Shown: positions 2,958 to 57,030 of the stretch, piece after piece | Position numbering within the stretch: position 1 is the stretch's first letter | Layout of the letters: every line of letters begins with the position of its first letter | Assembly (NCBI GenBank): GCA_008632985.1 | Contig: QPGO01000147.1 | Coordinates: 1-64,000 of the forward strand | Origin: Psammoneis japonica | Taxonomy: Eukaryota | Reading direction: 5' to 3' | DNA length: 64,000 nucleotides | The notes under the pieces: generated by a model | The model's database searches: none | Told to the model about the DNA's origin: nothing | The model's input: the letters and a program-made list of their open reading frames with translations, nothing else | Translations under genes and position numbers: made by a program

Positions 2958-3945
2958 AATTTGTTGCGCTCCACTACTAGCTAGCTTTCAATCTCATCGT
3001 GGCGACACAAGCTCAGTCAAAACGGTACTTTTGGCCGTTGACTGTCATTTTCTGTCTTTTCGAATTCAAACGAACAAATGAATATACAGTAATACATACA
3101 TAGTATCATAGAAGACATAAATAATTATTTAGCACTGTACAACGTCACAATGGCGGCAGACGCACTGTACACCCCAACGGCTTCCGTCCCATTATGAGAT
3201 CACAGAATAAATAGCCCTAAAGAATGCCGGTAAATAATGAGTGGTGCATGCTGCTGTGGCATGAGAGAGGACCACCGGGCGGTGCAGCAGTCCTGCAAAA
3301 TGGACATGTCTGGTGCGCGACTTTGTTGCAGAAGTTGAGTCATCCTCCTGCCCATCTTCAACTCAGACTCAGGCACTGGGGAAATGCCGCGCTGACATCA
3401 TGATGTGTGCAAGGAGCAATGGCCAGACGTTGTCACAGGTGCAGACCATTTCTTGTTTTGCATCAACTGACACCACAAAGGTGCGTGGCCAATTTTCTGA
3501 TTTGCTGGCTGGTGGTGGCTGGGTTGCAGCAGAAGGTTGGCCATCTTGTTCCAACATTTTTGTTTTGCACTTGACTCTTGGAAAAGTCACCCACATCAGA
3601 GCGTGCAATGCAGCGATCCAGACCACCTTTCTTGCAGTGATTTTTTTGATCCGTTGCAGTGCCAAATTCTGTTGTTTCAAACCTTGACAGTTGTGCAGCT
3701 GGCAATGACATGTCAACTGTGACAGATTGACATTTTCATGCTTTGGGAGTGCTGGTCAGACCCCCCCTCTGCCCCCTGTGAAGAAAAATGTTTCGCCATG
3801 AACAGGGGCAAGTTTTCCCTGTGAGAGTGCCCACCCTCCATCCCCACAAAACCTGCAAATTAAAGTCATTTGCATTGCACCAAGAACATCACATTTTGTT
3901 GTTTGTGTTTAAATTGGACGATGCTGATGGAGACAACACACCCCT

Positions 3946-4470
3946 GGAGTTTGCAGCAGCAGCTGCTTGCAACTCGCTTTCTTGAAGTGCCGCTCCAACA
4001 CTGGCAGCCACCTTGTTCATTGCCAAAAAAGTGCAGAGCACATTGTGAGAGCAGTGCAATGCAGATGGACTGACACTGCCAACAGGAGCGGCAACATGGG
4101 CTTGCTGGTGCATCCCCCGGAGCAGGTGAGTTTGCAGCAGGAGCTGCCATTCCATCATTTGAAGTGCCGTTGCTCCACTCCACCTCATTCATTGCCAAAA
4201 AGAGCAAAACACATTGGGAGAGCATGACACAGATGAGCCAACACAACCCATGGGAATGGCGACATGAGCATGCCAGTGTGTCAGACACCGCTGATTCTGG
4301 AGCAGGTGAGTTTGCAGCAGAAGTGCTGTTGCTCCTCTGACCCACCCTCATTCATTGCCGAAAAGTGTGGAGCACATTGTGAGAGCACATTGTGGATGAA
4401 CTGACATGAACTGCAACACACACTTGCTGGTGCATGGGAGCATCTGGTGCCACTGATTCCAGAGCAACAT
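3946..4470. repeat. Diverged tandem repeat, about 175-180 bp x3
   Basis: gagtttgcagcag...ttcattgcc.aaaa...cacattg.gagagca recurs near 3947, 4128 and 4308. Confidence 0.8.
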
Positions 4471-4801
4471 GGCTCCACCCCTGCAACTCAAAGAAAACAC
4501 AGAAAGAAAGCATGTGAGCAAGCAAAAAACATCTCAAGTGCCACAGAAGAATGCACTTGCTGGAACAGCTGTGGGAACAAGCACTGCCTGCATGTGCACC
4601 ACATTGCACAAGGTGCTGCATGAATGACAAAGTCATCGGCAATGACCAAGTTCGCCCTGCAGCTCCTGTGCTGTGAATGGTTCATCGATGACATGTTTAG
4701 AGTGGTGTGGACCAGAAACAGCAGAGAGACTTAAAAAGCCTTTAAAAATGAGCCTGACAACTCAGGCAACCTCCAATGGGTTGCCCCCCCACTCTCTGCC
4801 T

Positions 4802-5110
4802 CTGCAGTCTTTCTGGATCTGGATGCAGAAATTGGAGAAGAGGGATGCAATGCAAGTGAACATGTCAAAAACCAGCAAAGCTCTTTTTGTTGTGCACACC
4901 TTTTTAAAGAGTGTCATGTGTGGTGAAGAACTTTTCATGTGTGTGATTCTGGCTGAGAGTGGCAGGAACAAGCACCGCCTGCAGTCTTTCTGGATCTGGA
5001 CATGGAAATTGGAGAAAAGATGGACGCAAACGCATCAAAATCCAATGAACCTCTTTTTGCACATGCCTTGTCTGAAGAGTGTCATTTGTGGCAACTTGTG
5101 ATCATTCTGG
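4802..5110. repeat. Tandem duplication, about 177 bp x2
   Basis: ctgcagtctttctggatctgga at 4802 and 4979, with downstream similarity (aagagtgtcat.tgtgg). Confidence 0.75.
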
Positions 5111-7995
5111 ATGCAAAACTGTGACACACGCGATCATGCCAACACTGCAGAAAAGCAAGTTTGTGATGTGCGTGCACACAACAACACGCCAGCAGCTCAG
5201 CATTTTAGATGCAGTGGATTCGTGATGGCACACTCGCGATCACAAAACTCAAGCTGCAGCCAAATCAAAACCCATCTTGACCAGCCAGAAGGACAGCAGG
5301 TTTCACCATGTGCTGAGCTGCTGTCATTGGCCAACGGGGCAAAGTCATTCACCACCATGGCCGGTTGTCGATTTGCAGATTTGCGACCACACACAGGATC
5401 CACGTGAATCATTGCAGTGCACGCTCTCGCATTCAAACTTTGGGGAGAGGGTGCACTGTTGTGAAGTGTGCAGAAAATTGCGCATGTAAAAAACACACTG
5501 AAAATGCCACACAGACCAACGGGCTGTGTGCAAATCTGCGAAACATGAAGAAAAATGAAGGTGGGTCACATGCGTGTGCATGAAGCACTGCATGTGCAGC
5601 AGACTGCACACACGCAAAGACACACACACATGAGTGAGGAGGACAAAGTTGCAAACCAAGTTCAAATTGATTGCAGTCAAAAGAAAAGTTAACGAGACAT
5701 CAGATGAAATGCACAAAACAGCTGCATTTTGTTGAGCACTTTTGCCGGCATTTTTTAAATTCTGCTTGTCAACAATTTTGACAATGCACATTAAAAAATT
5801 TACAAAGGAAAGTGGAGACCACTGCATTGTGGCCTCTCATGCACTGTTTCCCTTTGTCATGCTGTGGGTCAAAAACATGATTGTGTTGCTGCCTTGCCAT
5901 TTAAGACAGCAGGCTCAACTTGGCAATTTCTCTGCCTCCCCAGCTCTTGAGAGGGCTGACACACCAGGAAAAGCAGCACCAGCAGCAAAGTCATGTGCAC
6001 CACATTTCTTGGTGAAACAAAGACAAGGATCAAGGTTGGATTGAATCCAACTGTGTTTGAGCAGCCCTTTGCACAGCTTTTTCACAGAAGCATGCTGGAG
6101 ACTGTCGGAATCCAGACAGGCCTTTCAGCACCTGATTTTGGCTGAAAACCCTCTGTGGCAGTTTTTTTGTGACTGCCACACCTTCTTGATGTCACAGCCC
6201 ATCAGAAGAGTGGCAGCACAACCCACTTGACAAGCAGCCCATGCCATTCTTTCAGCATCAGAACAAAGAAAAAAAGCACGTGGATGGCTGCTGCGCACTG
6301 CTGGTGTGCAGGTCTCAAAATGTCAATGCCTTCTTGTTTCTGCAAATTTTGTTACAAACACAATGCCATGCCTTGCACATCAAGGGTGCACTGTCAGGGA
6401 GTCAGTTAAGTTTGAGTGCCCAAGTGCCATTCAAAATGCACTTCTCACATTGGTGGCTCTTGTCAGCGTCATCTCCCACGCACCAGCAAAGCAGCTTGTT
6501 CATTTTTTCAATTTTTTGTGACCACAACCCACTTGTCAAACACTCACATGACTGCACACACAGCTTTGTGTGCAGAGTTGTCAACATTGCAGGCTTCCAT
6601 GTCAACACCCAGATGTCCAGAGTCCCAAGATGGGCCAACTGGCAGGTGGAGCTTGGAGTGGTCCATGCCTGCAGCTTGCCCAGAGCATGTGATTTGGCTT
6701 TTAGAGCTTTGCATTGTTCTGGGAATGTGGAGTGCTCAGCAGAACCAAGAGAACAGCAGTGTCATTTGGCATGCCAACAGACACTGCATTGTGGGTCACA
6801 GCTGCATTTTGCTGCACACTTGAGCTTGAGCTGCAGAAGCAAAGAGCAGGCATGGAGCAAGCCTTGGACTGAGGCAAAATTGAGATCATGACCAAACTGC
6901 CAGCACCATTCCAAAATGAGCTCTTCTGCCTGCTGGCAAGGATTTTGCTGTCTGGGTGCATCCAGCACTGCAAGAAAATGACAATTTTTTTGCCAGCTCT
7001 CCTTTTTGGCATGTGTGTCATTCAATCTTTTGCATTGCAGTCTTGTCAAGCACCCAAGTGCATTTCAAAAATGCCCCTGCACATCTCTGTGCATGGCTTT
7101 GTTGATGAGAAATGATGCCAAGAGGTGCAAGCAGCAAATGGTGCATTGCACTGCAAACAAAACACACTTTGTAGAAGATGAAGAGTGCAGCCAATTGGCA
7201 AATGCCCACATTTTCCAAACAGCTCAAGCCATTTGTGCGATGCTCTCACAGGGCCCAGTCATTGGGGGAAAATGAGAGACTGGCAAAAAGAATGGCACAG
7301 GGTGCAGAGCCACACCCAAGATCAACTCCAAAACAAGCACTCAAAAGACACCCAACTTCACCACAGTTTAAACATCTTGTGACTTTTTCAACAACATGGC
7401 CCAGAGCACATCACAATTGTTTTGCATTCTCCTTTTCATCACTTCACAGGAAAGCAACTCTCAAGCTTTCTGACTTGTGGCCTTTTTTTTAATGCCATGC
7501 AGGAGAGAACCAAATTTGTCAGGTCAAATTGTGCGCAGCTTGCACACAATGTGCATGCTGTGAAGTCATGCAGAGCAGTGACACCAACCAGATGATGTCT
7601 GTGTCAATTGCTCAATTTGCCTTTGATCAAAAGCAAGCATCATCTGCTTTGACAAAAGAGCCATGGATGTCATTTGTTTGACACTCCCATGCATTGGGGT
7701 GCACCAATTGCCCCTGCCATGAATCAGCCAACCAGAGAAGCCGATTTGTTTGCATTCGGGCATCACACTTTTTTTAATCCAGTTCTTCTGGTGTTGCATC
7801 AAACACCTTAGCACCAACAAGACTGCAGCTGGTCTTGCCTCATTGGCTCAGCGAAAGGCAGAAGAAGCTTGAGGGCAACGACTTGCTGAAAATGGAGGAA
7901 GCAACTGCAGCTCATTCAAAAGCAGGGAGTGAAGAACATTCTGACAAAAAGAAGAGACCCGGGTCAGTGCATCAAGGCAACATGATGAACACCAT

Positions 7996-8224
7996 GGAGC
8001 TCCGGGGAGATGAGGAAGGCTTCAAGAATCGAGAACTGCCGTCCGCATCCAAACAATGCATGCCAATGAGTTCAGTGGTCAGCACTGCTGCACAAAGAGT
8101 CAATGAATGTCACAGAGCTCTGGGGAGATGAGGAAGGCTTCTAGAACAGAGAACTGCCATCCGCATCTGATCAATGCATGCCAAGGAGTCCAGTGGTCAG
8201 CACTGCTGCACAAAGAGTCAATTG
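7996..8224. repeat. Tandem duplication, about 118 bp x2
   Basis: gagctc.ggggagatgaggaaggctt...cagtggtcagcactgctgcacaaagagtcaat occurs twice. Confidence 0.8.
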
Positions 8225-8709
8225 CCATGCGCTCGTTGAATCACACAGAGACAGTCACCTGGAGGCCCAGGCCATTGGCCAAAAGATTGAATCAAAGAAA
8301 CAGAAGGTCGTGTGAACAGCCACAAAGAAAATGCCACCCGACTTCAACAGCAATGGCCGGGAAGAGTTGGTTGCCTCGGTTTCCTTGAAGAACAGCAGGT
8401 GGCATTCCTTTGACCACTGAAGCCTTCAGACTGTTGGGGTTAGCTGGAGACTTGTGGATGCAATCATGAATGGATCAACGGTGATGGACGTCGGCTTTCC
8501 CTTTTGTTCCATCACTGTAGCCGTGCCACCTCCACTCTGTGGGACTCTCAAGCGTAATGAATCCGGATTGCAACTTTTTTCTCCATTCCTTCTTCAGCTT
8601 GAGACTTTTTCGATTGGTTTCTTTCGGGCCTGCTCGGGTGAGCTTGAGCCAGAAACCACCGCTATCCGACGAGGATAGAGAAGGCAATGTACTGTCATTA
8701 TCGTCCTTT

Positions 8710-10400
8710 TTCGTAGCGCCAATAGCATCTATGCACTACCAACTTGTTTACCTCGGGTCAGTAGTGTTGCGTATCTATACCGCACCGCTTCCCACGCACT
8801 CTGCAATATGTGACACTAAATACAATACGCCCAAAGTTCGACAAATGTCTAATGGTAGACAATAAAAATACCACAGTAGTACGTCAAACGTCTAATGATA
8901 AATAATCAAGCCGTATAGATGCCGAACGAATCGCCATATATCGGTATGCAAAGGCTCAATAAACTACAATGTCGTTCCCACCATGCTTCAGGACATTGAC
9001 ACTTGAGTGAATTTCACGACTTTTCCAAGACCCCGCAACACCGCACATGCTGAGAGTCAATCTCCGCTGTCTACTTGAGTACTGCCTTTTCTATAGGTAG
9101 GAAGACAACCATCAAGTCCCTCCACTTCCTTCGCTCATCGCCAACGCAAGCCTTCCAATGCAACAGCCATGTCATTTTCACTCTCCAAAAAGAAGCGATC
9201 ACCCTCTGAATTGGTGCAATGAAAACTCAGACTAAAGTCACAAATTTGAACCTTGAAGGCAGGTATTTTGGACAGTGAGCTGCGAATCTGCTTCCCTCCT
9301 CTGCAGTCTCTCAGCTCTGAAAGCCAAGGAAACTCCTTCTCCTCTAGGATTCTCAAATCGAAACCCGCCGTGCATTCAAAGGCATTTGATTCATTTTCGG
9401 CCTGTGAAATGAGAGCCCTTCCTCCAGCCTGAGTACAATCTACCTTGATGTCTTCATTCATCCAACAGAAGCGCTTTTCTCAGATGTCAGGGTGCAACAG
9501 GGGGCCTCGTTCTTGGATGAAGGCTTCACTGTCTACAATGCACACTGATTTCATGTTGTCACGCCTGAACAGAGTAACTCGGAGTCGGGGAACACGTTTG
9601 CCAATGTGTGCTCTTACCGCATCTTCTACAATGTCTGTTGTGATGCCAGTGATGCCCTTCAAACCGAGCGCTTCATCATCATCACAGTACCAAGACTTGC
9701 GAACGGATGCTGTTGATGATGCGTACGGATTTTCAACCGTGAGCACCCCCACGGCGTCATGCGCACGTAACATATTTCGGAATTCGAGCCGAATCTGATC
9801 TTGCGACCACGAAGCTATGACGTGTCGGCGACGCTTGTTTTTGTTGACATCGTTGGATCTCTCGATTCGGTAGAGTTCCACAACTGCAAAGATGGAGTTC
9901 AACGGAAGGTTGTGAGTGAGTGGAACTCTTGGAAGCTCCTCCATCGGCACTTCCCTAGAGAGAGATTCAGCCAAGCGACGGAAATCCCAGTTAGGTTATA
10001 CGGAGAGAAAACTCTGGACCGTACTCTCGGAATAAGTGTTTGCGCAGATTTGTTTCCACAAGTCTCCACAGTCTTGACTTGAGGAGAGCATTTTGTTCCA
10101 GGATTTACACACTCTGGACGCAGATCCGACATCCTGAGCATCAAGCCAGCGCATGACTAGCCGCCACGTAAAGTCATCCATCACCATGTTTGTTCAATCG
10201 TCTTAGACATCAGACACAAGGCAAAAGGGGTTAGTTGAGCGCGGCTGCAGCAACACCAGTGCGATGATGAGTGATGAGCCCGCAGCGCCTGTGGATACAA
10301 GTACGGTACGATGAGCCAACCACAACGAACAAACGCGGCGCCGCACGCTCCCCACGCGAAACGCGAGCAGCGCTTGACAGACAGCCAGACTGACAGCGGT
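8710..10400. repeat. Copy 1 of a 1.7-kb inverted segmental duplication (partner 39470-41138)
   Basis: Near-identical reverse complement covering the F-box gene and its 3' flank, with a more diverged promoter. Confidence 0.95.
9135..10187 (-). pseudogene. F-box-like protein pseudogene (paralog of 39669..40719)
   Basis: Three ORFs lie in one frame, separated by in-frame stops at 9996-9998 (CAA>TAA) and 9480-9482. The N-terminus is F-box-like (RLVMRWLDAQDVGSASRVCKSW). Confidence 0.88.
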
Positions 10401-14337: not shown

Positions 14338-14414
14338 GTCGGAGGGAGTTTCTGACGGACATACGGACCGTGTCGGAGGAGTTTCGGGCGACACACGGAC
14401 CGTGTCGGAGGGAT
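14338..14414 (+). repeat. GC-rich 32-34 bp tandem motif (gtcggagggagtttcgggcgacacacggaccgt), about 2.4 units; dispersed family
   Basis: The same motif occurs at 25610-25658 and, inverted, at 57031-57102. Confidence 0.85.
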
Positions 14415-19599: not shown

Positions 19600-20250
19600 G
19601 GGAGAGGGGGCACAACAACCCGCAAAGAACAACATGCAGCATCTATGCAGGTTTCTGCGCTGGTGCACAATGGATGATTTTCAAGAAGCAGAAACTCTGC
19701 TGTGCCTGTGTGCATCTCATTTCTTTTGTCGCACCGCAGCTCTCTCAGAGTTCCCTGGCCAGATGGGCCTTGCAGCGCTCAACCACAATTCTGACAGTGT
19801 TCCCAGGGTTCCACCAGAGATCACTGACATCCTTGGTCTGCATTTGGTGTTCTTGTGGGTTGCATCAGGGCTTTCCTTTCACTCTGGAGCTGCGAGAGTC
19901 CCCCAGCTCTGACATGGATGAAGTGACTGGGGGGCACAACTGCGGTGCAAGATCGGCCTCACAGCACTCTGCCACAGTTCTCAAAGTGTTCCCTGGGTGC
20001 TGTCAGAGACCCTCAATGCTGTCAGCCTGCAGTTCTTGTGTTGGTTGGTCACACATCTGGGTGTCCTTGCACTCTGGAGTTGGGAAATCACAGCTCTCAC
20101 TCTGGCATGGATGAAGAGTGACTGTGTGGGGGGCACAACTGCAAACAGATGAGCCTTAAAACACTCCACTGCTGTTCTCAAGTGTTCCCCAGATTGCACC
20201 AGAGAGCTGCAGTTTCTTTGGCCTGCAGTTGTTGTTTGGTCAGTCAGAGT
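19600..20250 (+). repeat. Satellite array, about 190-200 bp unit, about 3 copies
   Basis: ttct.a.agtgttccc...cctgcagtt...cactctggag recurs near 19788, 19978 and 20175. Confidence 0.75.
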
Positions 20251-20679
20251 CAAAGCTGTGTTCTGCCTCAAGCTTCTGTGTGCAGTCTCCAATGGGGGGG
20301 TCAAAATGGCCCATTTGTCACAGCACGCAGAATCTGCATGGGTTCTAGCATTGAACTTGCTGCAAAAGACAGAGTCAGCACACATGACCTGCTCTGTGCA
20401 AGTGCCACCAAAAAACTCAAAAACCAACATCATGGTGGGCAATCGGAGCGGATTTTGGTCATTTCATGAAAAAACCAAGTGAATTTTTTACTCTCATCTC
20501 TGCCAGATTTCTGCAGTCAATCTCTGAACAGCCCGTGTGTCATTCCAGATGGGCGGAAGAGAGAAGAGTGAAGACTCTGACTTCAAAAACTGAGCAAGGC
20601 ATCAACAACCATCTTTGGTCTTTTGTCACCATGGCTCCATCTCTGAGGGCATTAAAATCTCAATGGGAAGCCAGAGAAC

Positions 20680-22210
20680 ACTTTGAGAGCAGTGGTTGAG
20701 AGTTGCAAGGCTTGCCTGCTGGTGCAGCTGTGCCAAGCAAAGCCTCCAACCTCACACAACTGCTGCTGGCCAACTCAACAACTGCAGGCTGAGGGCATTG
20801 AAGCTCTCCAGAGAAACCCTGGGAAGTTTTTGAGAATGGCAGCAGAGTGTTGCAAGGCTAATCTGGTGCAGTTGCAACCCCCCAACTGCTCAATCCATTC
20901 CAAAATGAGAGGAGAAAAATTCCCAGCACTGCTCCAGAGTAAAAAGACACCCTGCAGTGCAATCAACTGACCCAACAACTGCAGGCTGAGGGCACTGAGT
21001 CAAGGTCTCAAGAGGAACCCAGGGAACACTTGAGAATGGTGATGGAGTGTTGCAAGGCTCATCTGGCACAGTTGCAGCCACCAGGGACTCAAACCATGCC
21101 AGAGTGAGAGCTGAAACTCCTGACTCCAGAGTGAAAAGACACACACTGATGCAGCCAACCCACCCAAAAATTGCAGGCTGAGGACATTGGATTTCTCCAG
21201 CAAAGCCCAAAGAACACTTTGAGAGAATGGTGGTGGAGCATTGCAAGGCTCATCTGGAGCAGTTGCAGTCACCAGTCACTTGATCCATGCCAGAGTGAGA
21301 GCTGACAAAACTCCTGACTCCAGAGCAAAAGGACACACTCGTGCAGCCAACCAATCCAAGAACTGAGGGCTGAGGGCATCAGGGCTTGACTGCAGGCTGA
21401 GAGGATTGAAGGTCTCCCATGGAACCCAGGGAATGCTTTGAGAATGGTGGTGTGGGCATTGCAAAAGGCTCATCTGGGCACAGTTGCAGCCACCAGACAC
21501 TTGGTCCATGCCAGAGTGAGAGCTGAAACTCCTGACTTCAGAGTGAAAAGACACCCTGATGCAACCACCCAACACAATGACTTCAGCCTGAGAGCATTGA
21601 AGGTCTTCAGTGGATTCCAAGGAACACTTTGAAAATGGCGAGAGTGATTCATGGCACTGAAACTCCCAACTCCAGAGTGAAAGGACACCCTGGCACAACC
21701 AACCAGCCCAACAGCTGCAGGCTGAAGGCACTGAAGATCATGCACAGAACACTTTGAGAATGGTCGTGGAGTTTTGAAGAGCTCATCTGGTGCAGCTGCA
21801 GCCCCCAGTCCCTCAATCCATGCAAAAATGAGAGGAGAAAAAAATTCCCATTTGCTCCAGAGTGAAAGGACACCCCCTGGTGCAACAAACCAACCCACAA
21901 CAACTGCAGGCTGAAGGCATCAATGGTCTCCTGTGGAACCCAGGAGGAGGCCACACTTTGAGAATGGTGATGGTGGGTTTGTTGAAGGGCTCATCTGGTG
22001 CTGCTGCAGTCCCTGGTCACTCAATCCATGACAAAATGAGAAGAAAAAATTTCCCAACTGCTCCAGAGTGAAAGGACACCCCGATGCAACCAACCAACCC
22101 AACAGCCACAGGCTGAGGTCATTGAGTCAAAGGTCTCAAGAGGAACCCAGGGACCATTTGAGAATGGTGGTGGAGTGTTGAGAGGCTCACCTGGTGTGGC
22201 TGCAGCCACA
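20680..22210 (-). repeat. Same satellite in inverted orientation, about 8 copies
   Basis: The tgagaatgg anchor (or a variant) occurs near 20831, 21030, 21222, 21439, 21630, 21755, 21959 and 22159. Units carry ctccagagtgaaa.gacacc and ctgcaggctga. Confidence 0.85.
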
Positions 22211-25200
22211 ATGCTTTACACAGCAACGTGATGACAGATTGGTGCTGACCTCATCCAGCCCACATCAACTCCAAGATCCCAATTGGTCAATGCCCCCAGT
22301 GCTCATGCTCTTTCATGCTTGCCACCTTCTTGCCAATTTGAACAAGGGCTTCCCTGTGAGCCACAATGCAAATGTGTGCTCCATTGCGTTTGAAGCCATG
22401 ACGGCAATGATGAATTGTCCCTTGTGGGTCATCGTGACTCACCTGAAGACTGGCAGGAGTGGCTGCACTGTCAAGAAACCAGATCACCTCATTGAGTCAA
22501 TGAAGGCTGAAATCCACATCCCAACCAACAAGTTGCCAACTGCCCAAAAAAAAATCCCAAGTGCTCAGCAAAGTCAGAAACATTGAACAAACAGTTTTTG
22601 ATGGCACCACAATGGGACAGCATTGCAAATGCTCTCAGATCAAAAGGCTTGCATGCTGTGGTCAACATTTTCAGCCAAAGTGCCAATCAAGAACATGACA
22701 CACTCAAAGAAATGCACCCTCTCTGGCTCTTGCAGCTGTTGCCAATTCTGCTGACAACCCAAAACTTGGGAGGAAGCCATGAGTGGACCTGATCTCGCCG
22801 CCTGTCTCAAGGCTTGTGATGTCAAAATTGACTCCCTTGTTGATGACAAAGATGCTTGGGAGAAGTTGACTGCCAAGATTGGACAAACATCTGTCATCCA
22901 CTTGGGCCTTCAGATGCAAACAATGCCCTGATGGGTCAATTCAAAAACACAAAGCCTGATTCTGTGTCCGTGGTGACAAGAAATTGGAATGTGTTGGCCA
23001 CTTTGATGCCTTTGCTCCACTGCAGATTGGACAATGGCACAGCTGATGCTTGTGCTGTCTCAATTTTTTGAGCTCTCAACCAAACAAGTTGATTGTGTTG
23101 CTGCTTTTGTCCATGCTCCAATTGACGAGGATCCAAAAGCATGGGACAACATGATGCGTGAAGAGTGAGAGCACTCTGGACAATCGCGGGGCTTTGACTC
23201 CAGCTGACATCATGCCAAGCTCCAAGCACTGTGCCATCAAGTGTCAGGCTTTGCTTGCAGCTGAAACCAAATCAAGTCACTGTGTCCAAGATTGCAACAG
23301 ATTTTAACAAAGGGACTCATCGTGGTCAAATTGAGTCTGTTCACAAGTTGCTCTGCGGTTGGTGGCTTCTTTGTTGAAATCATGCATGACTCGCGCACGC
23401 TCATGCTTGCGCATGTGCAATTTTCTGCTTCCAGCCTTGCACCTGCAGCACTGTGTGGTGCTCTCTAGAGAGTGCAAAACAAGACATTGGTGTGCAGCTC
23501 CGTTGATTGCATTGCTGTCATTGGCCCTGCTGCTGGCAATGCATTTGCCATTCACCCTCCAGTTGATCTCTTCCAACTCTCAGACAACAGTCATTGCACC
23601 CACAAAATGACCACAAAGCATCATCATCTTTGCTGTCATCCGTGGTAAATCATGCATCATGCATCCAGAACCATGAGCACAGCATGTCACATCAAGCACT
23701 GGGAGACCGTGACATGCATTGCCAGCCCCTGTTGGACCTCTCCCCAACAAACAAGAACAGTGCAGTCTGCCAGCAAGGAAGAAGAATGCATGTGCAACAA
23801 CAAAACAAAGGCACAAGACCCTGCATGGCATGCCAACAACAATTTTGATTCACTTGATCAAGCAGCTGCAATGCACTGGGCTGAATGTGCTCAAGTGCTG
23901 CAACACAAACTGTGCCAGCAACAAGCAACAAGACACAAAGCAGCTTGTTCCCAAGTTTGTTTTGGAAAGAAAAGCATTCAAGCTGAAGTGCAAAGAGCAG
24001 TTGGCTTTTTGTTGTGGGAAACTGGCACCAGAATTACAAGAAGAAAACAAGGAATTGCAACATCAAGTGAGTGCACTGGAAGAGGTGAGTTGCTCCTTGT
24101 GTCAGCAAGCATCTGAGTTGAGCCGACTGGCACAAGTTTCAGACTCAGGAAATTGCAAGCTTTGGCAAGAAAAGAAAGAGCTGCAAATGGAAGCCAACAG
24201 ACAAGACAAGTAAACTCTTGAACATGAGTGGACAGAACAGCGCAGTGACTTGAGCAAGCTGAGCATGCACAAGCAATTGGATGATGATGCGGAACCCAAT
24301 GTGATTGGTTGGGAAACATCAGGGTGAAGCACAAGTGCTGTGAAGGAAGCAGGGGGGCCTTGTCTTTTTAAATTGCTGGGCATTTTTGAAGAGGCCATGG
24401 GTGATGAGCTTGAAAAGTCTTGGTTGGAATCCGACAGTCACATGATGTGCCATGAAACGGACGAAACATCCACTCCACTGTGCAAGGAATGTGTCGCCGT
24501 TTTGGAGGCTCTCACACAAATGTGATGAGTGCTGACAATGAAGAAGAAAGCAACAAACATGCAGATGTTGCATTGCTGGTGGGTTTGACAAAAGGAATTC
24601 AGCAAGAAGCATCACACCAGAGGAGGAAGTGTCAGTCATCAGATGGCATCCGCGACTGAACGAATCATCCACTCAAGATTTCAAATTCTGTCCTTCAATG
24701 GAAGAAGAATTTCGGCATTGCCTGACAATGTTGTGTGTGCAAGCATCCAACAAAATGCAAACCTGCAATGAGTTGCTGCACAAAGAATGAAGTGGGTTGC
24801 TGTGCAAAACATTGGATTTGTTGGAAGCCAGCACCAGGCAGTCAATGGCATGGAGACACGCGATTGTGGCGTGGCCACAAACTGACTCGACAAACTTGTT
24901 TCTTCTCATGCACTCAAATGCCGCCAACAAAAAGACACTCTCAACAAACAATGCAATTGCAGTGGACACATGTTGGCTGCCCATGTCACACAACATCATG
25001 GACAGTGAATGCCGCGTGCAGCGGCATTGGATGGCAAGAGTTTGAGCTCAGTCCTTGCATTTGGTGTGCATTGTGCATGAATCAAGTGCCGGCAAGACCT
25101 GCCATGATGCAGTGGCATTCTCCACCTGCACTGAATCATTGTTGAGACCACCTGTGTTGCTGCTCATGGCATCCAACAGTGACTCGGCCCATCCCACCCC

Positions 25201-39469: not shown

Positions 39470-41138
39470 CCGTACCATGCTGTCAGTCTGGCTGTCTGGC
39501 AAGCGCTGGCGCGAGAGCTGGCGTGCCAAAAAGAAATGCGCGTTTCGCTCGCGCGCGTGGGGAGCGTGCGGCTGGCCGGCGGCTGCGTTGTTGTTTGTCG
39601 CATTGTTGTTGCTGCAGCCAGCGATCAACTTACCCCTTGTGTGTTATGTCTAAGACGATTGAACAAACATGGTGATGGATGACTTTACGTGGCGGCTAGT
39701 CATGCGCTGGCTTGATGCTCAGGATGTCGGATCTGCGTCCAGAGTTTGTAAATCCTGGAACAAAATGCTCTCCTCAAGTCAAGACTGTGGAGACTTGTGG
39801 AAACAAATCTGCGCAAACACTTACTCCGAGAGTACGGTCCAGAGTTTTCTCTCCGTACAACCGAACTGGGATTTCCGTCGCTTGGCTGAATCGCTCTACA
39901 GGGAAGTGCCGATGGAGGAGCTTCCAAGAGTTCCACTCACTCACAACCTTCCGTTGAACTCCATCTTTGCAGTTGTGGAACTCTGCCGAATCGAGAGATC
40001 CATCGATGTCAACAAAAACAAGCGTCGCCGACACGTCATAGCTTCGTGGTCGCAAGATCAGATTCGGTGCGAATCCCAAAATATGTTACGTGCGCATGAC
40101 ACCGTGGGGGTGCTAACGGTTGAAAATCCGTACGCATCATCAACAGCATCCGTTCGCAAGTCTTGGTACTGTGATGATGATGAAGCGCTCGGTTTGAAGG
40201 GCATCACTGGCATCACAACAGACATTGTAGAAGATGCTGTAAGAGCACACATTGGCAAACGTGTTCCCCGACTCCGAGTTACTCTGTTCAGGCGTGACAA
40301 CATGAAATCAGTGTGCATTGTAGACAGTGAAGCCTTCATCCAAGAACGAGGCCCCCTGTTGTACCCTGACATCTACGAAAAGCGCTTCTGTTGGATGAAT
40401 GAAGACATCAAGGTAGATTGTACTCAGGCTGGAGGAAGGGCTCTCATTTTACAGGCCGAACATGAATCAAATGCCTTTGAATGCACGGCGGGTTTCGATT
40501 TGAGAATCCTAGAGGAGAAGGAGTTTCCTTGGCTTTCAGAGCTGAGAGACTGCAGAGGAGGGAAGCAGATTCGCAGCTTACTATCCAAAATACCTGCCTT
40601 CAAGGTTCAAATTTGTGACTTTAGTCTGAGTTTTCATTGCACAATTAGAGGGCGATCGCTTCTTTTTGGAGAGTGAAAATGACATGGCTGTTGCATTGGA
40701 AGGCTTGCGTTGGCGATGAGCGAAGGAAGTGGAGGGACTTGATGGTTGTCTTCCTACCTATAGAAAAGGCAGTACTCAAGTAGACAGCGGAGATTGACTC
40801 TCAGCATGTACGGTATTGCGGGGTCTTGGAAAAGTCGTGAAATTCACTCAAGTATCAATATCCTGAAGCATGGTGGGAACGACATTGTAGTTTATTGAGC
40901 CTTTGCATACCGATATATGGCGATTCGTTCGGCATCTATATGGCTTGATTATTTATCATTAGACGTTTGACGTACTACTGTGGTATTTTTATTGTCTACC
41001 ATTAGACATTTGTCGAACTTTGGGCGTATTGTATTTAGTATCACATATTGCAGAGTGCGTGGGAAGCGGTGCGGTATAGATACGCAACACTACTGACCCG
41101 AGGTAAACAATAGTGCATAGATACTATTGGCGCTACGA
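39470..41138. repeat. Copy 2 of the 1.7-kb inverted segmental duplication (partner 8710-10400)
   Basis: Reverse-complement near-identity with copy 1. Confidence 0.95.
39669..40676 (+). CDS. F-box-like protein; a net 2-nt loss near 40640-40650 alters the C-terminus (ancestral stop probably at 40719)
   Basis: 335-aa ORF. Copy 1 reads gcaccaattcagag where this copy reads gcacaattagag. Confidence 0.75.
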   Translation: MVMDDFTWRLVMRWLDAQDVGSASRVCKSWNKMLSSSQDCGDLWKQICANTYSESTVQSFLSVQPNWDFRRLAESLYREVPMEELPRVPLTHNLPLNSIFAVVELCRIERSIDVNKNKRRRHVIASWSQDQIRCESQNMLRAHDTVGVLTVENPYASSTASVRKSWYCDDDEALGLKGITGITTDIVEDAVRAHIGKRVPRLRVTLFRRDNMKSVCIVDSEAFIQERGPLLYPDIYEKRFCWMNEDIKVDCTQAGGRALILQAEHESNAFECTAGFDLRILEEKEFPWLSELRDCRGGKQIRSLLSKIPAFKVQICDFSLSFHCTIRGRSLLFGE

Positions 41139-41163
41139 AGTTTGGACGATCGTGTTTGTTTCA

Positions 41164-51619: not shown

Positions 51620-54600
51620 CCACAGCGCGCGAGTAGGGAGCGCAGCGCAGCACCAGTGCTCACATCAGGAGCACAGGCGCTTGCACAGCATCGCATTGTG
51701 TCAAAACACGGCAGCGCGCAGTTGGGAGCACAGCACCAGTGCTCACATCACGAGCACAGGCCCATCATGCATTAAGATTTATCATGTCCTCTAGATTGCA
51801 AACGACATTGCCATTGCCCAACCTTTTCAGAATTGATTAAAAACACAAAGGGCATCATAGATTCAAAATTTGTCTTTGCTTGGACACTTGTGTTGTGTCA
51901 AAACACACAGCTCACAGTTGGGAGCGCAGCACAGTGCTGCAGCACCAGCGCTCACATTGGGAGCACAGGCACTTGCACAGCATCGCAGTGAGCAACACTC
52001 ACGTTACAGCATGGTGCTGCACATGGAAATGGCCGTTTCTCACTCCCACCACAAACACACAAACATCATCAACAAGGAGCACCTGCAACAATGGCCATCG
52101 CCACTGAAAATGAGCATCATCGATTTTGTGTTGATGCCATTCGACCTGCTGTTGTCAACCAAAAACAAATTCATAAAATGAAAACAAATGAAAACATTCT
52201 CTAGAGACAAAATTTGTTTCTTCATTCTCACATTCTCGGTGAGTGAATCAAATCACTCCACGACATTTGACGAAATCTGTTGATTCATTGCATTTTTTGG
52301 TTTTCTCAACTTCTTGTTTTCCTTTGATCTTTGTCCACATTTCTGCAGGAAAATGTCACATCATGCGTTGTGGTGGTGCCAGACATTGGCAAGAACCTGA
52401 AACAAGGTGAGGCAGCAGCACTCCATGCACTGCATGTCTTGAGAAAACCTGTCCACCCCAATGAAATCTCAAGACCAGCATCTTTCAAGAAGCTTCTCTT
52501 GGATTGCTCTTTCTGATGCTCATGGCTCTAGAACCAGAACATGCCACATCTCGTTGTCAACTTCTTGATTCTTTGCTGACTGAAGATGCATCGGGAGCTC
52601 GCCTTTCTCTGGTTCATGAGGGTGGAATGGGTGTCTCAGATGCAAATCGTTGTTCCATTGCACTTGCAGCACTCAACACCCATGTTTCCATTGCCCCGCA
52701 GGCTCACCATGCCAACAACGCTTGACGTCAGACAATTTGTTTGACAATGAAAAAGAGTGCCGTTTTCACCTTCCACAGCCACTCATTTTGAACAAACAAA
52801 ATGCAAACAAACAGGACGAACATGTTGTTTCTTGAGGATGCTGCCAAGTGTTGGGTGTCAGATCATCACACATGACAGGTGCAGAGTCGCAAAGCACGCC
52901 GTCTCACACACCATGGTGTGCTTCGTTTTTGAAAGGATGCCGCTTGCTGGAATTTTGAAATGGTCCCAACAAAGGTCAGACCAGAATTGTTCAGTGCAGA
53001 GGTGGCCAGACCACAAGACTGTGAAAAACCCAGATGTCGTCCATCGTCCACACAAAAACAACATGGAACAGAATGGGCTCTCCTTGGTTTTCATGCACCA
53101 TCTGCACATGAGCCTTCTTGTGCAAGACATCTTCTGCTCAAGCTCTTCCTTGTGCTTGCAGGTGCAGCAGTGGTGCTCTTCTTTGGCGGCATCATCATTG
53201 TCCAGGATGCCGCAATCCTCTTCAGCTTCCTTCTTAGAAGCTGGAGCTGCTGGGACCGCGGTCTTTTCAGCAGTGCTTGAGTCACAAGGCTCCATCAGAT
53301 CAAGACAGAGGCAACAAATGATGTGGTCATGAAGCATTGGCACCAAAGCTTTTCCAGTTAACGGAGCTCAGGATTGTCAGCAAGGCCATTGTGGTGCAAC
53401 TTGCAGAGCACAAGCACGCATTCATCGAGAGTGAGAATGTAAACTGCTGCCTTGGTCCTCATGCTCACATCAGCTTGGACAAACGTCATGGAGTTCTTGG
53501 CACACTTCTTCTCCATGGAGGCTCTGCGGTGCCAGCCAGCAGTTTGGAGGAACTTCTGATTTGAGATGGAAAGCAAGTGCAGATCTTGGCACTTGAGAAA
53601 AGCTTGTGCTTGAGCACCTTCACAATGCTCTGCTTCCTCTTCTGCTTCACAGGTCTGTGCTTGAAGCTCACTCAACTCAATCAAAGTGGTGCTGTGCTTC
53701 TCTGTGGCTGCTTCAAAGTGCTTGCTCTGTCCCTGGATTTTGAGAATGAGGCCCGCTTGCTTGTCACTTGCGTTGTCAAAGAGAGCACTCAACTCTTCTG
53801 GGCCATGCTCTTTGCACTCCTTCTCGAATTCAGGGTGTGCATGGTGTTCACAATGCATCAGACTTGGACAACCAAACTGCAAATGATGAGCCAGGAGACT
53901 CACAGCAAAACCAGCAAGTTTCAATTTCTGTGCTTCCTCTTGTTTGGCGTTTTGTTGACAGCTGCTCCTGGTGCCACCACTTTTGCCGCTTGGCCAAAGC
54001 ACATCATGAAGATTTGGTGAAGACTGCTTGATGTGGGTGGATGGTGAATGGTGGCAAAGACTGCTTGATGCAGATGGTGAATGGTGACAGTGAAAGCAAA
54101 CAACAAAATGACGAGTGTCAAAATTGTGAGAGTGACTGAGGAGGCTGATTTTGGTCTTCTCTTCTCTTGCGTGGTCCTCTCTCTGTGTGGAAACACCAAC
54201 TTGACTCTCTGTTTTGTTGGCAACTTGGCAGCACCGCATGACACAGACTCTGTTGGTGTCAACTCCTCCAAATGCACAACACTGATTGATCTGAACTGAA
54301 GGCATGATTAAAGAATGTCGAGAGCTTGAACAAAACGGTGACCTCTTTGGCTTCCAATGTCTCCAAACTCACACATCCTAAATGCCTGAAACATGAGTGT
54401 GCTCATTACAGTCACTGTCATGACTTAAGAAGGTGTCAGTTGTCCACTGTGGAATTGTTCAGTCTGCCTTTCTTTGGCAGAGCCGCAGAGCAGCAATGAA
54501 GACAGAAGAATGATCAAGTGCTGCCCCTCTTTCAAACAGCCACAGAGTGGCAACGGCAGCAGAAGCACTTCAAATGTGTGGCGCTTTTGCACCTGCCGTG

Positions 54601-56960
54601 TGAAAACATTCAAGACAGCAAGTGTCACACATTGCGTGCAATCATGATGCAGTTGCAAGTGCTTCAAATGGTCCTTTTGCACATTGTTTGCTTTGCGAGG
54701 TTCTGCGCAGTGACTCGACCAAAATCCACAACTGGAGATGAAGAGTGGGCAGTGCAGCATGACATTGAAGCAAGGGATCTCTCAAACAATCCACAAGGAA
54801 ACATGTCATTGAATCACTGGCAACACTCTCCCCAAATCAATGCATGCCGGTCAAGATGCAAGAGACTTCAGGAAAATTTGAAAGCATGATTTCTTGAAAA
54901 GTCCCCAAGGAAGCTCGCATCTCCAACAAGCAGGCCACTGCAAATGCTTTCCTCTCACAAACCCGCCGGTGAGTTTGCCAGTCAACAAGCTGTTGCGACT
55001 GCCTCTTCACATCAACACTCCCACACAGACAAGCAGATTGGTCCATGTGGCCAAGCCAATGCAGTGGAATTGCACCACAACCCTTGGATGCTGCAACAAC
55101 TCAACACAATGTGCTTGTCCTCTTGATCAAGTTTTGACCATGTGTGATGGATGATGACACCATCAGGAAGCTTTGTTCAATCCCAAAGGTCAATGTGCAA
55201 GGCAACACTTGGTTGTCTCATGGATCAATGAGCCTGTGCATGCTCCCTCATCCCTTGGTCTCCATCCATTGCAAGAGCCGCTCCCGCACCGCAGTGACAG
55301 ACTCTCTGGATTTTCCCTGTGTCAACAAGTTCTCAATGTCTGTGCCTGATGCAGGCCATTGCAATGACCACTGCTCTGACGACAATTCTGATGACAAGTC
55401 ATTGGATGCTCAAGATGCCACCCAGTCAGTTTTGCTGGACATTGTCACAATGATCTGTGCCACAGGACACAGCTCTGAAACCACTGCGGTTGTGTGTGGT
55501 GTCCAAGCAAAGGCCACATCCTCCATTTTGCACCACTGCTGCCAGCCCTCCCCCCAAATGTTGGCACTGGTGTTGCCGGCTGTCCTGGTGCTGAGCAGCA
55601 CCATGCTGGCAAGAAACATGCAGCGCTGCAACACCATTGAAGTTTCAAGTTTGGTGGAAGACACCGGAAGGTTGCATTGGCAAGTTGTTGACACTGTTGC
55701 TGCGCAAAGCTGTGCACAAAGGCACATCGGATGTCAGTGTGTACTCCACTTTGTTGTTTCCTCTAGACTGCACACAACATTGTCATTGCCTGAGATCCAC
55801 ATGATTGTAGAATGTTGTCAACCACATCATGCATTCAACAATTTCATGCTTGCACAACACGAAAGAATGGGAATGCCAGCCACACAGGCCAGCTGCTGGT
55901 GCACCCTCTGTTTGATCATGCGTGGTTTGTGCTGCCAAAAGGAGGTCAGAGGAACACGTCTTTGAGCACAGCTGTTGCTTTTCTCCTTTCAAATCAGGTT
56001 CATTAAAGTTGAAAACAAAGAGCCTCAGATGACCTGGAGACCACCATGCACACCACCAGACATGGCCAGAGCTGAGCCCCTGGTTTGGAACTGAGCACAT
56101 TGTTCTCTGTTTGATTGAAAATGTTGCCATCTTGGTGGCTCTGAAACAGTGACACATTTGACAACAAAAAATCCACTCAGCCAGTTTTGACAAGTTTTGG
56201 CCTCCATGCACAGCTGGGGGGTGGGTTCTTGCTTGTGGGCACTCCCCAACGTCTGAATGTTGTTTGCCTCAGTTTTTCCTCTCTCCACCCAAGTGCTCAC
56301 AAATGTGTGCCAAGTTTTTTCTCTTCTAAAATTTTGTGCCTAAAGCTCATTTTTTGCATTTGTGCCATCATCCCATCAGTGCACATCATCGCAGCTGACT
56401 TCTCATTGATGCACAAAGAAGCGACGACAAGAACAGCCCATGAAGAAAATCATGCAGTGGAAAAGCAGCAGCTGGATTCTCCAGCTTTTCCCGAAGAATG
56501 CTCCTCTCCCCTGCACTGTCACAGAGACACTGTGGGGTGCAACAACAAGAGTGTCTGCCTCTCCTGAGCCAGAGGCAGTGGCACACAGTTGCAGCATCTC
56601 CAGCAGGGCACACCTCTGCTCTGGTTGTGGAGCAAAAGTGAAGAAAAAGAGCTTCAACAGTCAACAGCTGGTGGCTGAAAAAAAAACCAAATCAGTGCTG
56701 CCATTGCTGACAGACCACAAGGTAAGAGCCGGCCACAAGCCAACACCAGAGAAAGTGCCTGCTTCATTGTGGCACTTGCCACAACATGCTCTCCAGCCAG
56801 CACGCCATTTTCTTTTCTCGAGTGCTCTGCTCTGGTGTCTCTAGCCTTTCTTTGACACCTCTGCTTGATGCTCCCCATGTCTCTTTGAAGCCCTGCCCCT
56901 GCCCCCTTTTCTCTTTTGCCTTTGCCCCTTTCTTTTGTAAAAGATGATGCCATGATGTCA
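51620..56960. other. Hypermutated domain D4
   Basis: TpA/CpG loss with surviving ctctag at about 51789, 52199, 52525, 55761 and 56840. Starts with short repeats (gcagcaccag.gctcacat). Confidence 0.88.
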
Positions 56961-57026: not shown

Positions 57027-57030
57027 GATC

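What the first reader, a model, noticed from the sequence alone, without database searches (positions are those of the whole stretch)
3241..56960. Domain-restricted adenine hypermutation (RTA>RTG) alongside CpG decay: a candidate repeat-targeting mutator opposite in direction to RIP
Seen: four domains of 3-6 kb (about 3241-8480, 19390-25600, 28200-31480, 51620-56960) lack TpA almost entirely, while neighbouring genes and pseudogenes have ordinary TpA. In D1 I count about 23 TpA by eye, about 19 of them in YTAR (TTAA, TTAG, CTAG). The four exceptions are near 5487, 5801, 6353 and 7172. YTAR is the only context with no RTA on either strand, so the target looks like 5'-RTA-3'. CpG is also lost, and both processes yield TG/CA. 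Established: 5mCpG deamination explains CpG loss, and diatoms methylate repeats at CG via DNMT5, but this cannot remove TpA. Fungal RIP creates TpA from CpA. Inference: a second mutator acts on silenced repeats. Candidates are a TadA/ADAT-like DNA adenine deaminase, a modified adenine, or Pol-eta-type error-prone repair of T:G mismatches (WA>WG, although A-runs persist here). I know of no description of this but could not search the literature.
Basis: partly seen in the sequence, partly recalled or inferred. Interest (0 to 1): 0.92.

Follow-up and report, generated by a model that had tools for sequence, protein, structure and literature searches.

The report
TpA-erasing hypermutation islands in a diatom
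Four sharply bounded, non-coding stretches of a diatom chromosome have had nearly every TA and most CG dinucleotides turned into TG or CA, which points to an undescribed, locally confined A:T-to-G:C mutation process working beside ordinary methyl-CpG decay.

Summary
In four blocks (3236-8441, 19645-25458, 28445-31429, 51635-57000) TpA observed/expected is 0.06, against 0.58 outside, and CpG is 0.31, against 0.98. The loss (76 per kb) equals the CA/TG gain (76.5 per kb), and G+C is unchanged. Survival of TA depends on the tetranucleotide: RTAY is almost gone, TTAA is almost untouched, and a per-flank multiplicative model fits. Both strands are hit equally.

Direct polarised evidence comes from a broken gene copy just right of block 1. 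It has lost 11 of 50 TA to CA/TG relative to its intact paralogue, with none in the reverse direction. Homologues from other diatoms place TA as ancestral at two of those sites.

De novo contigs from a public DNA run match the TA-free sequence exactly, so an assembly artefact is unlikely. The blocks hold no recognisable protein domain, LTR or TIR. Two of them carry roughly 180-190-bp satellite-like arrays.

Composition bookkeeping favours RTA>RCA (equivalently TAY>TGY) over RTA>RTG. "Silenced" and "repeat-targeted" remain unshown. The enzyme is unknown. I found no description in eight literature searches.

The parts
3236..8441 (.). Block D1: TA-free, CpG-poor, TG/CA-rich non-coding island
   Evidence: It holds 22 TA in 5206 bp (4.2/kb) and 13.6 CG/kb. 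The left edge is sharp within a few bases. Six-frame read-through found 0 Pfam families. There are no terminal direct or inverted repeats above shuffles.
3336..6003 (.). Part of D1 that belongs to a many-copy, roughly 180-190-bp periodic repeat family
   Evidence: Summed contig word depth in run X1 is 968-3897 here, against about 55 in the flanks. Contig joints skip 178, 179 and 189 bp. Self-BLAST offsets are about 177-181 bp. Depth summed over contigs is not a copy number.
6004..8441 (.). Part of D1 at single-copy depth, equally TA-free
   Evidence: X1 depth is 55-87. Contigs covering 6324-6773 and 7625-8102 are identical to the window. TA counts are 0-4 per 500 bp.
19645..25458 (.). Block D2: the most depleted island
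   Evidence: It has 2.4 TA/kb and 10.5 CG/kb, and 0 Pfam families.
19758..22209 (.). About 190-bp tandem array (20770-22209) with inverted copies (19758-20246) inside D2
   Evidence: Found. In an alignment of 10 units, 28 dinucleotide columns hold both TG and CA, against 1-13 for seven control double-transition pairs. Two of these columns still hold a TA and one a CG.
28445..31429 (.). Block D3: less decayed island with a near-normal insert
   Evidence: It has 6.7 TA/kb and 32.2 CG/kb, and 0 Pfam families. The stretch 29997-30563 holds 13 of its 20 TA and has CG o/e 0.83.
51635..57000 (.). Block D4
   Evidence: It has 4.7 TA/kb and 17.7 CG/kb, and 0 Pfam families in six frames. Its two long ORFs (53358-54305 on the minus strand, 55147-55965 on the plus strand) have no family and are expected where TAA and TAG are absent.
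8710..9500 (-). Lightly mutated zone: the left 0.8 kb of a broken F-box gene copy, 270 bp right of D1
   Evidence: Compared with the paralogue, 11 of 50 TA are now CA (8) or TG (3), with 0 the other way. Only 1 of about 32 CG was lost by transition. The copy carries in-frame stops and 1-bp indels.
9501..10264 (-). Remainder of the broken copy, not affected
   Evidence: 0 of 20 TA changed to CA/TG. Fisher's test against the left part gives p=0.027.
39598..41139 (+). Intact paralogue (F-box ORF 39669-40676) used as the unmutated reference
   Evidence: It is 96.7% identical over 1556 bp, has F-box Pfam hits, and has 7 homologues at 28-37% identity.

Best explanation
The four blocks are non-coding, partly satellite-bearing islands of a pennate-diatom chromosome. 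After they were in place, they were hit by two dinucleotide-specific transition processes that both end in TG/CA.

The first is ordinary CpG>TpG/CpA decay, presumably by 5-methylcytosine deamination. The second, stronger one is TpA>CpA/TpG (A:T>G:C).

Shown for the TpA process:
- It works on duplex DNA on both strands.
- Its rate is set by the two flanking bases, with the 5' flank on either strand ranked A > G > C >> T. As a result RTAY is erased and TTAA survives.
- It stops within a few bases at most block edges, but has lightly touched about 0.8-1 kb of a pseudogene next to block 1.

Inferred: the base that changes is mostly the T that follows the purine (RTA>RCA, equivalently A>G in TAY). 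For RTAY the rate is at least about 180 times the ordinary reverse transition, assuming equilibrium.

Inferred, not tested: the process is tied to a local chromatin or DNA-modification state. The chemistry is one of three things: enzymatic deamination of adenine in TpA, a mutagenic modification of the thymine in TpA (of the 5-hydroxymethyluracil type), or error-prone patch repair. I rank adenine deamination first (about 0.3), thymine modification second (about 0.2) and patch repair third (about 0.1).
For: Mass balance. TA falls by 34.6/kb and CG by 41.7/kb, while CA+TG rises by 76.5/kb, with G+C unchanged. The result is the same against non-ORF background (-45.6, -34.1, +77.5).

Simulation. 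Applying only these two decays to the window's own background sequence cuts the tetramer distance to the blocks from 2766 to 358, with r=0.96.

Context. Survival relative to background is: ATAT 0 of 115 expected-scale, ATAC .008, ATAG .012, GTAC .026, CTAC .042, ATAA .08, GTAA .18, CTAG .24, CTAA .26, TTAA .90. This fits s(A)=.085, s(G)=.19, s(C)=.28, s(T)=.95 multiplied over the two flanks, and it is significant.

In-situ change with known direction. In the pseudogene zone 8710-9500, 11 of 50 TA became CA/TG and none reversed (binomial p=0.001). In the whole duplicate, 14 of 22 transitions are TA<->YR against an expected 25% (p=1.4e-4). The TA-bearing copy is the intact gene. At codon 261, L/M is conserved in 7 of 7 homologues. 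At codon 236 the derived state is a stop.

Mutation after local amplification. In the D2 array, 28 columns hold both TG and CA.

Strand symmetry and independence of sites. TG is about equal to CA in 500-bp bins, and there is no overdispersion relative to background.

Regionality. Edges are sharp. The non-ORF background still has TA o/e 0.68 and 142 RTAY in 9.4 kb.

The sequence is real. X1 contigs are identical over 6324-6773 and 7625-8102 at the same depth as the flanking genes. The window differs from X1 by 1-bp indels elsewhere, so its consensus was not simply copied from that run.
Against: - Only one 64-kb window was available and no whole genome is held. Genome-wide generality and the pre-mutation sequence of any block are therefore unknown.
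- No block could be aligned to an unmutated relative. Direct polarity rests on 11 sites, of which 2 were checked against an outgroup.
- "Background = ancestral composition" is an assumption.
- Methylation, chromatin state and expression were not measured.
- TA and CG survival do not co-vary among 36 500-bp bins (rho 0.15, p=0.39), although they rank alike across the four blocks.
- Which base of TA changes is unsettled at single sites: 2 against 2 informative sites, and one array column shows GTGA 7 against GCAA 1.
- CTGC/GCAG and GCAC/GTGC are more enriched than the two-process model predicts.
- X1 may come from the same sample as the assembly.
Confidence: 0.65

Rival explanations
1. Inherited composition. 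The blocks are insertions of elements that were already TA-free when they arrived. They might have been hypermutated in an extrachromosomal, RNA or cDNA stage, or amplified from a TA-less progenitor. On this view nothing happens in situ.
For: - Edges are very sharp.
- The four blocks are unrelated sequences.
- Many related contigs that are at least 90% alike exist for 3336-6003.
Against: - There is no LTR, TIR or TE protein domain.
- TG and CA are symmetric, so editing was not on a single strand.
- Units of one tandem array differ by TG/CA flips.
- The adjacent pseudogene shows the same change against its paralogue.
- Half of the related contigs fall in the 90-95% class (536 of 1070). By my arithmetic, independently mutated copies would differ by about 7.5%, which matches that class.
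Confidence: 0.12
2. Genome-wide neutral spectrum plus age. TA>CA/TG is simply the dominant neutral mutation of this species. The blocks are old junk at equilibrium, and everything else keeps TA by selection or youth.
For: The only pseudogene available shows an excess of TA>YR changes.
Against: - The non-ORF background keeps TA o/e 0.68, with RTAY at 15 per kb.
- The right half of the same pseudogene lost 0 of 20 TA, against 11 of 50 in the half next to D1 (p=0.027).
- The second duplicate (81% identity) shows no asymmetry: 9 against 6.
- A mutation-accumulation study of another diatom found a GC>AT bias and no TA effect (PMC6604790, passages).
Confidence: 0.08
3. Selection against TA (and CG) in these stretches, for instance to avoid a TA-cutting nuclease or transposase, or UA-cleaving RNases.
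For: TTAA and CTAG, two palindromes, are the survivors, which looks site-specific.
Against: - The blocks show no coding or RNA function.
- Purging to 1% in non-functional DNA needs implausibly strong selection.
- The exact mass balance into the transition products is what mutation predicts, not what selection predicts.
Confidence: 0.05
4. Technical artefact: base-calling or polishing errors on modified DNA.
For: - The assembly has an N at 13444 and 1-bp indel differences from X1 contigs, so it is not error-free.
- The only holder run may be from the same sample.
Against: - De novo k-mer contigs of X1 reproduce 928 bp of D1 with 0 differences, at the same depth as neighbouring genes.
- An artefact would not give a tetranucleotide-graded pattern together with a paralogue-polarised flank.
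Confidence: 0.03

Closest known systems
Repeat-induced point mutation (RIP) of ascomycete fungi
   Same: Dense transitions confined to sharply bounded stretches, dinucleotide-specific, with some leakage into neighbouring DNA. The result is non-coding relics.
   Different: RIP is C:G>T:A, mostly at CpA, and it creates TpA (abstract of PMC2621366 in the listing). Here the direction is A:T>G:C, TpA is destroyed and CpA/TpG is created. G+C is not lowered. An intact 96.7% paralogue is untouched, and a part at single-copy depth is fully mutated.
5-methyl-CpG deamination decay of methylated repeats
   Same: CpG>TpG/CpA loss with WCG decaying faster than SCG is present in the same blocks.
   Different: It cannot remove TpA. 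Here TpA loss is about 1.8 times stronger than CpG loss overall (from the per-kb values). In the pseudogene flank, TpA loss is seen almost without CpG loss.
Pol-eta WA>WG mutagenesis in phase II of somatic hypermutation (recalled, not from a call)
   Same: A>G at an A preceded by T, triggered by processing of U:G or T:G mismatches. This would link it to a methylated, deaminating domain.
   Different: WA includes AA, but AA/TT is not depleted (162 against 150 per kb). The strong 3'-pyrimidine dependence and TTAA immunity are not part of the WA motif as I recall it.
Adenosine deaminases of the deaminase fold (TadA/ADAT on U-A-C-G anticodon loops; ADAR hyper-editing), and the uncharacterised stramenopile deaminases predicted by Iyer et al. 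2011 (PMC3239186, passages)
   Same: A>I reads as A>G. There is a 5' U/T preference. Stramenopiles encode deaminase-SAM-Tudor and Rossmann-deaminase proteins for which 'DNA mutagenizing activity' was proposed.
   Different: The known enzymes act on RNA. ADAR editing passed through a retroelement's RNA copy would mark one strand only, and the 3' G preference (recalled) is opposite to TAY. No natural role in genomic DNA mutation is known to me. No such gene could be sought, because no genome is held.
5-hydroxymethyluracil made by TET/JBP enzymes in dinoflagellates (PMC11572971, passages)
   Same: It is a thymine modification reported to prefer T in TA and TC, to be enriched at repeat elements, and to be needed to silence transposons.
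   Different: It occurs in a different lineage. No mutational erasure of TpA is reported there. It is not known in diatoms, and TC is not depleted here beyond neighbour effects.
Very-short-patch repair over-correction that depletes CTAG in E. coli (recalled, not from a call)
   Same: A repair system built for deaminated 5mC converts T:G to C:G at look-alike sites and so erases a TA-containing word.
   Different: Here CTAG is among the better survivors (0.24), and the loss covers nearly all TA contexts.

Membership tests
RIP (fungal repeat-induced point mutation) | C:G>T:A transitions that raise TpA and lower G+C | tested here: not met
   TpA falls to o/e 0.06, CA/TG rises to 1.7-1.8, and G+C stays at 0.48.
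RIP (fungal repeat-induced point mutation) | Triggered by duplication, with both copies mutated | tested here: inconclusive
   Part of D1 is many-copy, but 6004-8441 is at single-copy depth for matches of at least 90%. Of a 1.5-kb duplicate at 96.7% identity, only one copy is hit, and only in its half next to D1.
RIP (fungal repeat-induced point mutation) | RID/DIM-2-type cytosine methyltransferase homologue in a sexual-cycle context | not testable with these tools
   No genome is held.
Methyl-CpG decay | Loss of CG into TG/CA | tested here: met
   CG o/e is 0.31. NCGN survival ranges from .19 (ACGT) to .63 (GCGC).
Methyl-CpG decay | Accounts for the whole compositional shift | tested here: not met
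   TA loss of 34.6/kb is needed as well to balance the CA/TG gain of 76.5/kb.
Methyl-CpG decay | 5mC actually present on these blocks | not testable with these tools
   No methylation data.
Pol-eta type WA>WG | AA as well as TA is mutated | tested here: not met
   AA/TT is 162/kb in the blocks against 150/kb outside.
ADAR-type RNA hyper-editing fixed through a retroelement copy | Single-strand A>G, giving a TG excess on one strand | tested here: not met
   TG is about equal to CA in all blocks, and runs and dispersion match the background.
ADAR-type RNA hyper-editing fixed through a retroelement copy | The host sequence is a retroelement | tested here: not met
   0 Pfam families in 24 six-frame read-throughs, and no terminal repeats.
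AMT1-type N6-adenine methylation | ApT context in active chromatin | tested here: not met
   AT is barely changed (54 against 61 per kb). The literature reports ApT, active genes and no depletion (PMC12695648, passages).
LTR retrotransposon or DNA transposon relic | RT, integrase or transposase remnants, plus LTR or TIR | tested here: not met
   Heavy decay could hide them.

The most novel reading that the evidence does not exclude
Diatoms, or this lineage of pennate diatoms, possess a dedicated genome-defence or heterochromatin-linked enzyme that chemically attacks the TpA step of duplex DNA. It would be either a natural DNA adenine deaminase or a mutagenic thymine modifier. It would be recruited to silent islands by the same mark that brings CpG methylation, and it would irreversibly scramble whatever lies there. 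This would be a mirror image of fungal RIP with the opposite chemistry, and the first natural A:T>G:C DNA hypermutator.
Probability: 0.35. Interest if true: 0.95.

Novelty: new variant of a known kind. Interest (0 to 1): 0.8.

Why it matters
All well-studied repeat-linked or silencing-linked point-mutation processes start from cytosine and push DNA towards A+T. Examples are RIP, methyl-CpG decay and APOBEC editing.

A regional process that removes TpA by A:T>G:C would be a new mutational signature. It would imply an unknown enzyme or lesion, and a natural DNA adenine deaminase would also interest base-editing work.

It would explain how silent DNA can decay without losing G+C. It would also make such relics invisible to the usual RIP and CpG indices and to homology-based repeat annotation in diatom genomes.

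It also gives a simple sequence index (RTAY against TTAA, and TG/CA excess) for mapping such islands in any assembly.

Tried and rejected
- Whole genome: none is held, so there was no genome-wide scan, no family consensus and no proteome search for deaminases, TET/JBP or Y-family polymerases.
- Earlier findings of this scan: five look-ups gave nothing on this genome or phenomenon. The phage CA/TG notes listed there are unrelated systems.
- Protein content of the blocks: 24 six-frame read-throughs with X at stops gave 0 Pfam families. The two long ORFs in D4 have no family.
- Background ORFs: I scanned 63 of the 94 ORFs of at least 110 aa (chosen by dropping overlapping opposite-frame ORFs). 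No transposon protein was found.
- Terminal repeats: no LTR- or TIR-like match at block ends above 30 shuffles. D2 direct scored 28 against a null maximum of 27, which is marginal.
- No tRNA genes and no Rfam families anywhere in the window.
- The blocks share no homology with each other.
- Second duplicate (36020-36664 against 46548-47196, 81%): TA<->YR differences are 9 against 6, so no asymmetry.
- Strand-coordinated clusters: none. chi2/df for TG against CA is like the background at 50-1000 bp, and the runs tests are mixed. The run of 7 same-strand changes in the pseudogene flank is not significant.
- TA against CG survival in 36 bins of 500 bp: rho 0.15, p=0.39.
- TA context in the lightly depleted flanks (57001-58500, 31430-32000, 48400-49650) shows no clear YTAR enrichment. 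I do not claim these flanks as mutated.
- Other diatoms: 80 metagenome loci around VTC homologues (433,294 bp, 1454 windows of 1 kb) have a minimum TA o/e of 0.28, and none is below 0.2. These are gene-rich contigs in which repeats assemble poorly, so this says little about absence.
- Sequencing runs: no RNA holder was listed. Run X2 behaves like RNA, since it skips 13306-13390 and 18862-18941, and it has no cover over 1335-9338. That is not evidence of silence.
- Literature: eight searches found no paper describing TpA-erasing regional mutation. Passages read in PMC4504042 and PMC2806351 (diatom TE and chromatin papers) mention no such bias. Subscription journals and preprint supplements were not searchable.
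Full report
OBSERVATION. The window has 48% G+C throughout. In 1-kb sliding windows, TpA observed/expected is 0.27-0.82 over most of the window. It collapses to 0.00-0.19 in four stretches, where CpG is 0.02-0.64 and TG/CA is 1.45-2.0. Runs without any TA reach 1316, 1277, 1088 and 1063 bp. Using those gaps I set the blocks at D1 3236-8441, D2 19645-25458, D3 28445-31429 and D4 51635 to about 57000.

Pooled, the blocks have TA 0.06, CG 0.31, CA 1.71 and TG 1.81. The rest has 0.58, 0.98, 1.15 and 1.18.

I find 22 TA, 18 of them YTAR, and the four exceptions lie exactly at 5487, 5801, 6353 and 7172. In D2-D4 the YTAR share is lower: 8 of 14, 10 of 20 and 15 of 28.

IS THE SEQUENCE REAL? One public DNA run (X1, kept as de novo contigs) holds the region.
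- Its contigs over 6324-6773 and 7625-8102 match the window with no difference, at the same word depth (about 55) as the flanking genes.
- The window differs from X1 contigs by 1-bp indels at several places in 12-16 kb and carries an N at 13444. Its consensus was therefore not simply that run's assembly.
- X1 may still come from the same culture, so independence is partial.
- X1 contigs also show CA>TG double changes at 5127/5128 and 6177/6178.

WHAT THE BLOCKS ARE.
- Homologues of the neighbouring VTC gene that carry names are pennate diatoms, with a best identity of 73%. The background genes are ordinary eukaryotic genes.
- None of the 24 six-frame read-throughs of the four blocks hits any Pfam family.
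- There are no tRNA or Rfam hits.
- There are no LTR- or TIR-like terminal matches above shuffles.
- The blocks share no similarity with each other.
- D2 carries a roughly 190-bp tandem array with inverted copies.
- D1's left half (3336-6003) has about 180-bp periodicity. In X1 it collects 1070 related contigs, with summed depth 18-70 times the flanks. D1's right half sits at single-copy depth.
- The edges are sharp. At 3235 the sequence passes from ...AATAAATAG...GGTAAATAATG to TA-free text within a few bases.

TWO PROCESSES, BOTH ENDING IN TG/CA. Per kb, TA drops by 34.6 and CG by 41.7, while CA+TG rises by 76.5. Against non-ORF background the figures are -45.6, -34.1 and +77.5.

I applied only these two decays, with context-specific survival, to the window's own background sequence. 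This reduces the tetramer distance to the blocks from 2766 to 358 (r=0.96). The secondary shifts (GA/TC down, GC up, AA/TT up) are the neighbour effects expected from CGA>CAA, TCG>TTG and GTA>GCA.

CONTEXT. Relative to background the tetranucleotides survive as follows: ATAT 0, ATAC/GTAT .008, ATAG/CTAT .012, GTAC .026, CTAC/GTAG .042, ATAA/TTAT .08, GTAA/TTAC .18, CTAG .24, CTAA/TTAG .26, TTAA .90.
- A model that multiplies one factor per flank (5' A .085, G .19, C .28, T .95) reproduces nine of the ten classes well. CTAG is higher than predicted.
- Fisher tests give p=2e-19 for YTAR against the rest and p=5e-4 for RTAY against mixed. A non-ORF background gives the same order.
- CpG decay shows its own flank order, A>T>C>G.

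Which base of TA changes is less clear. Bookkeeping points to RTA>RCA, which equals TAY>TGY. GC rises by 14.5/kb, and AT falls by only 6/kb although ATA falls by 20/kb and ACG>ATG adds AT. The simulation also prefers that model: SSD 358, against 559 for RTA>RTG and 409 for a coin toss. Individual sites go both ways.

From the counts (3 RTAY against 1097 RCAY/RTGY), I infer that the forward rate is at least about 180 times the reverse transition, if the blocks are at equilibrium.

DIRECT, POLARISED EVIDENCE. A 1.56-kb duplicate lies at 8710-10264 and, in reverse orientation, at 39598-41139, with 96.7% identity.
- Of its 22 transitions, 14 are TA<->CA/TG, against an expected 25% (p=1.4e-4), and 4 are CG<->CA/TG.
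- In the 0.8 kb nearest D1 (8710-9500), all 11 such sites read CA/TG in the copy next to D1 and TA in the distant copy (11 of 50 TA, p=0.001). Only one CpG there was lost by transition.
- In the remaining 0.76 kb, 0 of 20 TA changed (Fisher p=0.027).
- The distant copy is an intact F-box ORF with seven homologues. The copy next to D1 has 1-bp indels and stops.
- At codon 261 the homologues have L/M, like the TA-bearing copy. At codon 236 the derived TG makes a stop. So TA is ancestral at these sites.

Inside D2, ten aligned units show 28 dinucleotide columns that hold both TG and CA. Seven control pairs show 1-13 such columns. TA survives in two of these columns and CG in one. This is the footprint of independent hits on either strand after the array formed.

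STRANDS. TG and CA are balanced in every block. Their dispersion at 50-1000 bp equals that of the background. The process therefore acts on both strands, site by site. That excludes single-strand RNA or cDNA editing as the source.

MECHANISM. Shown: a regional, duplex-level, tetranucleotide-graded TA>CA/TG transition process beside CpG decay. Everything about the agent is inferred.
- Adenine deamination in TpA gives hypoxanthine, which pairs with C. It is the most direct chemistry. Uncharacterised deaminases, one class fused to SAM and Tudor domains, were predicted in stramenopiles and proposed as possible DNA mutators (PMC3239186, passages).
- A mutagenic thymine modification is the second candidate. 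Dinoflagellate 5hmU prefers T in TA and TC, sits on repeats and silences transposons (PMC11572971, passages).
- Pol-eta-like patch repair fits poorly, because AA/TT is not depleted.
- AMT1-type 6mA is an ApT mark of active genes without compositional effect (PMC12695648, passages).

RIVALS. These are pre-insertion hypermutation, a genome-wide neutral bias seen only in old junk, selection against TA, and artefact. Each is weighed in its own section. None explains together the strand symmetry, the array flips, the half-mutated pseudogene and the TA-rich non-coding background.

NOVELTY. Eight full-text searches and passages from two diatom TE and chromatin papers found no description. Passages from the P. 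tricornutum mutation-accumulation study (PMC6604790) report a GC>AT bias of 2.21-fold, with CG/CC/TG mutagenic and no TA effect. A sample of 433 kb of gene-rich contigs from other diatoms shows no such block, which is weak evidence either way. The kind of phenomenon, point-mutation decay confined to particular stretches, is known. The specificity and direction are not.

Noticed in passing
14338-14411, 25610-25658, 57029-57105: A CpG-rich 32-34-bp tandem motif (consensus) recurs at three intergenic places. Two of them lie directly at the right edges of D2 and D4, the latter in the opposite orientation. Its CpGs are intact. It could be a boundary or promoter element, or the end of an unknown element.
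   Followed up: partly
57001-57026: A perfect (CGAT)6.5 microsatellite sits exactly where D4 ends and normal CpG density resumes.
   Followed up: no
29997-30563: This is a 0.57-kb stretch inside D3 with near-normal CpG (o/e 0.83) and 13 of D3's 20 TA. It may be a younger insertion or a protected element. No tRNA or Rfam hit was found.
   Followed up: partly
36020-36664 vs 46548-47196: An 81%-identical copy of the C-terminal part of the P-type ATPase gene (Cation_ATPase_C at 46368-46823) lies 10 kb upstream, next to the VTC gene. It is probably a pseudogene fragment. It shows no TA asymmetry.
   Followed up: partly
47762-49636: A 624-aa ORF with no Pfam family contains a 153-bp tandem repeat (48669-48973, 88% identical). 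It has a low TA o/e (0.26) with normal CpG (1.05). Codon usage or a partial TA effect could explain this; I did not resolve it.
   Followed up: no
12217-15643 and 13444: The window carries an N and about ten 1-bp indel differences from the contigs of runs X1 and X2. This suggests residual indel errors in the assembly in genic DNA.
   Followed up: no
42069-43179: Two adjacent minus-strand ORFs carry DUF285 (PF03382) repeats, a family named after Mycoplasma proteins. This is an unusual family to meet in a diatom chromosome.
   Followed up: no
13306-13390, 17230-17329, 18862-18941: Contigs of run X2 skip these 78-103-bp stretches cleanly. X2 therefore behaves like RNA and the stretches like short introns.
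   Followed up: no
6161-6178: An X1 contig of depth 50 differs from the window at four places within 18 bp, including a CA>TG flip at 6177/6178 in the part of D1 at single-copy depth. It is possibly the other allele, which would mean the flips are recent.
   Followed up: partly
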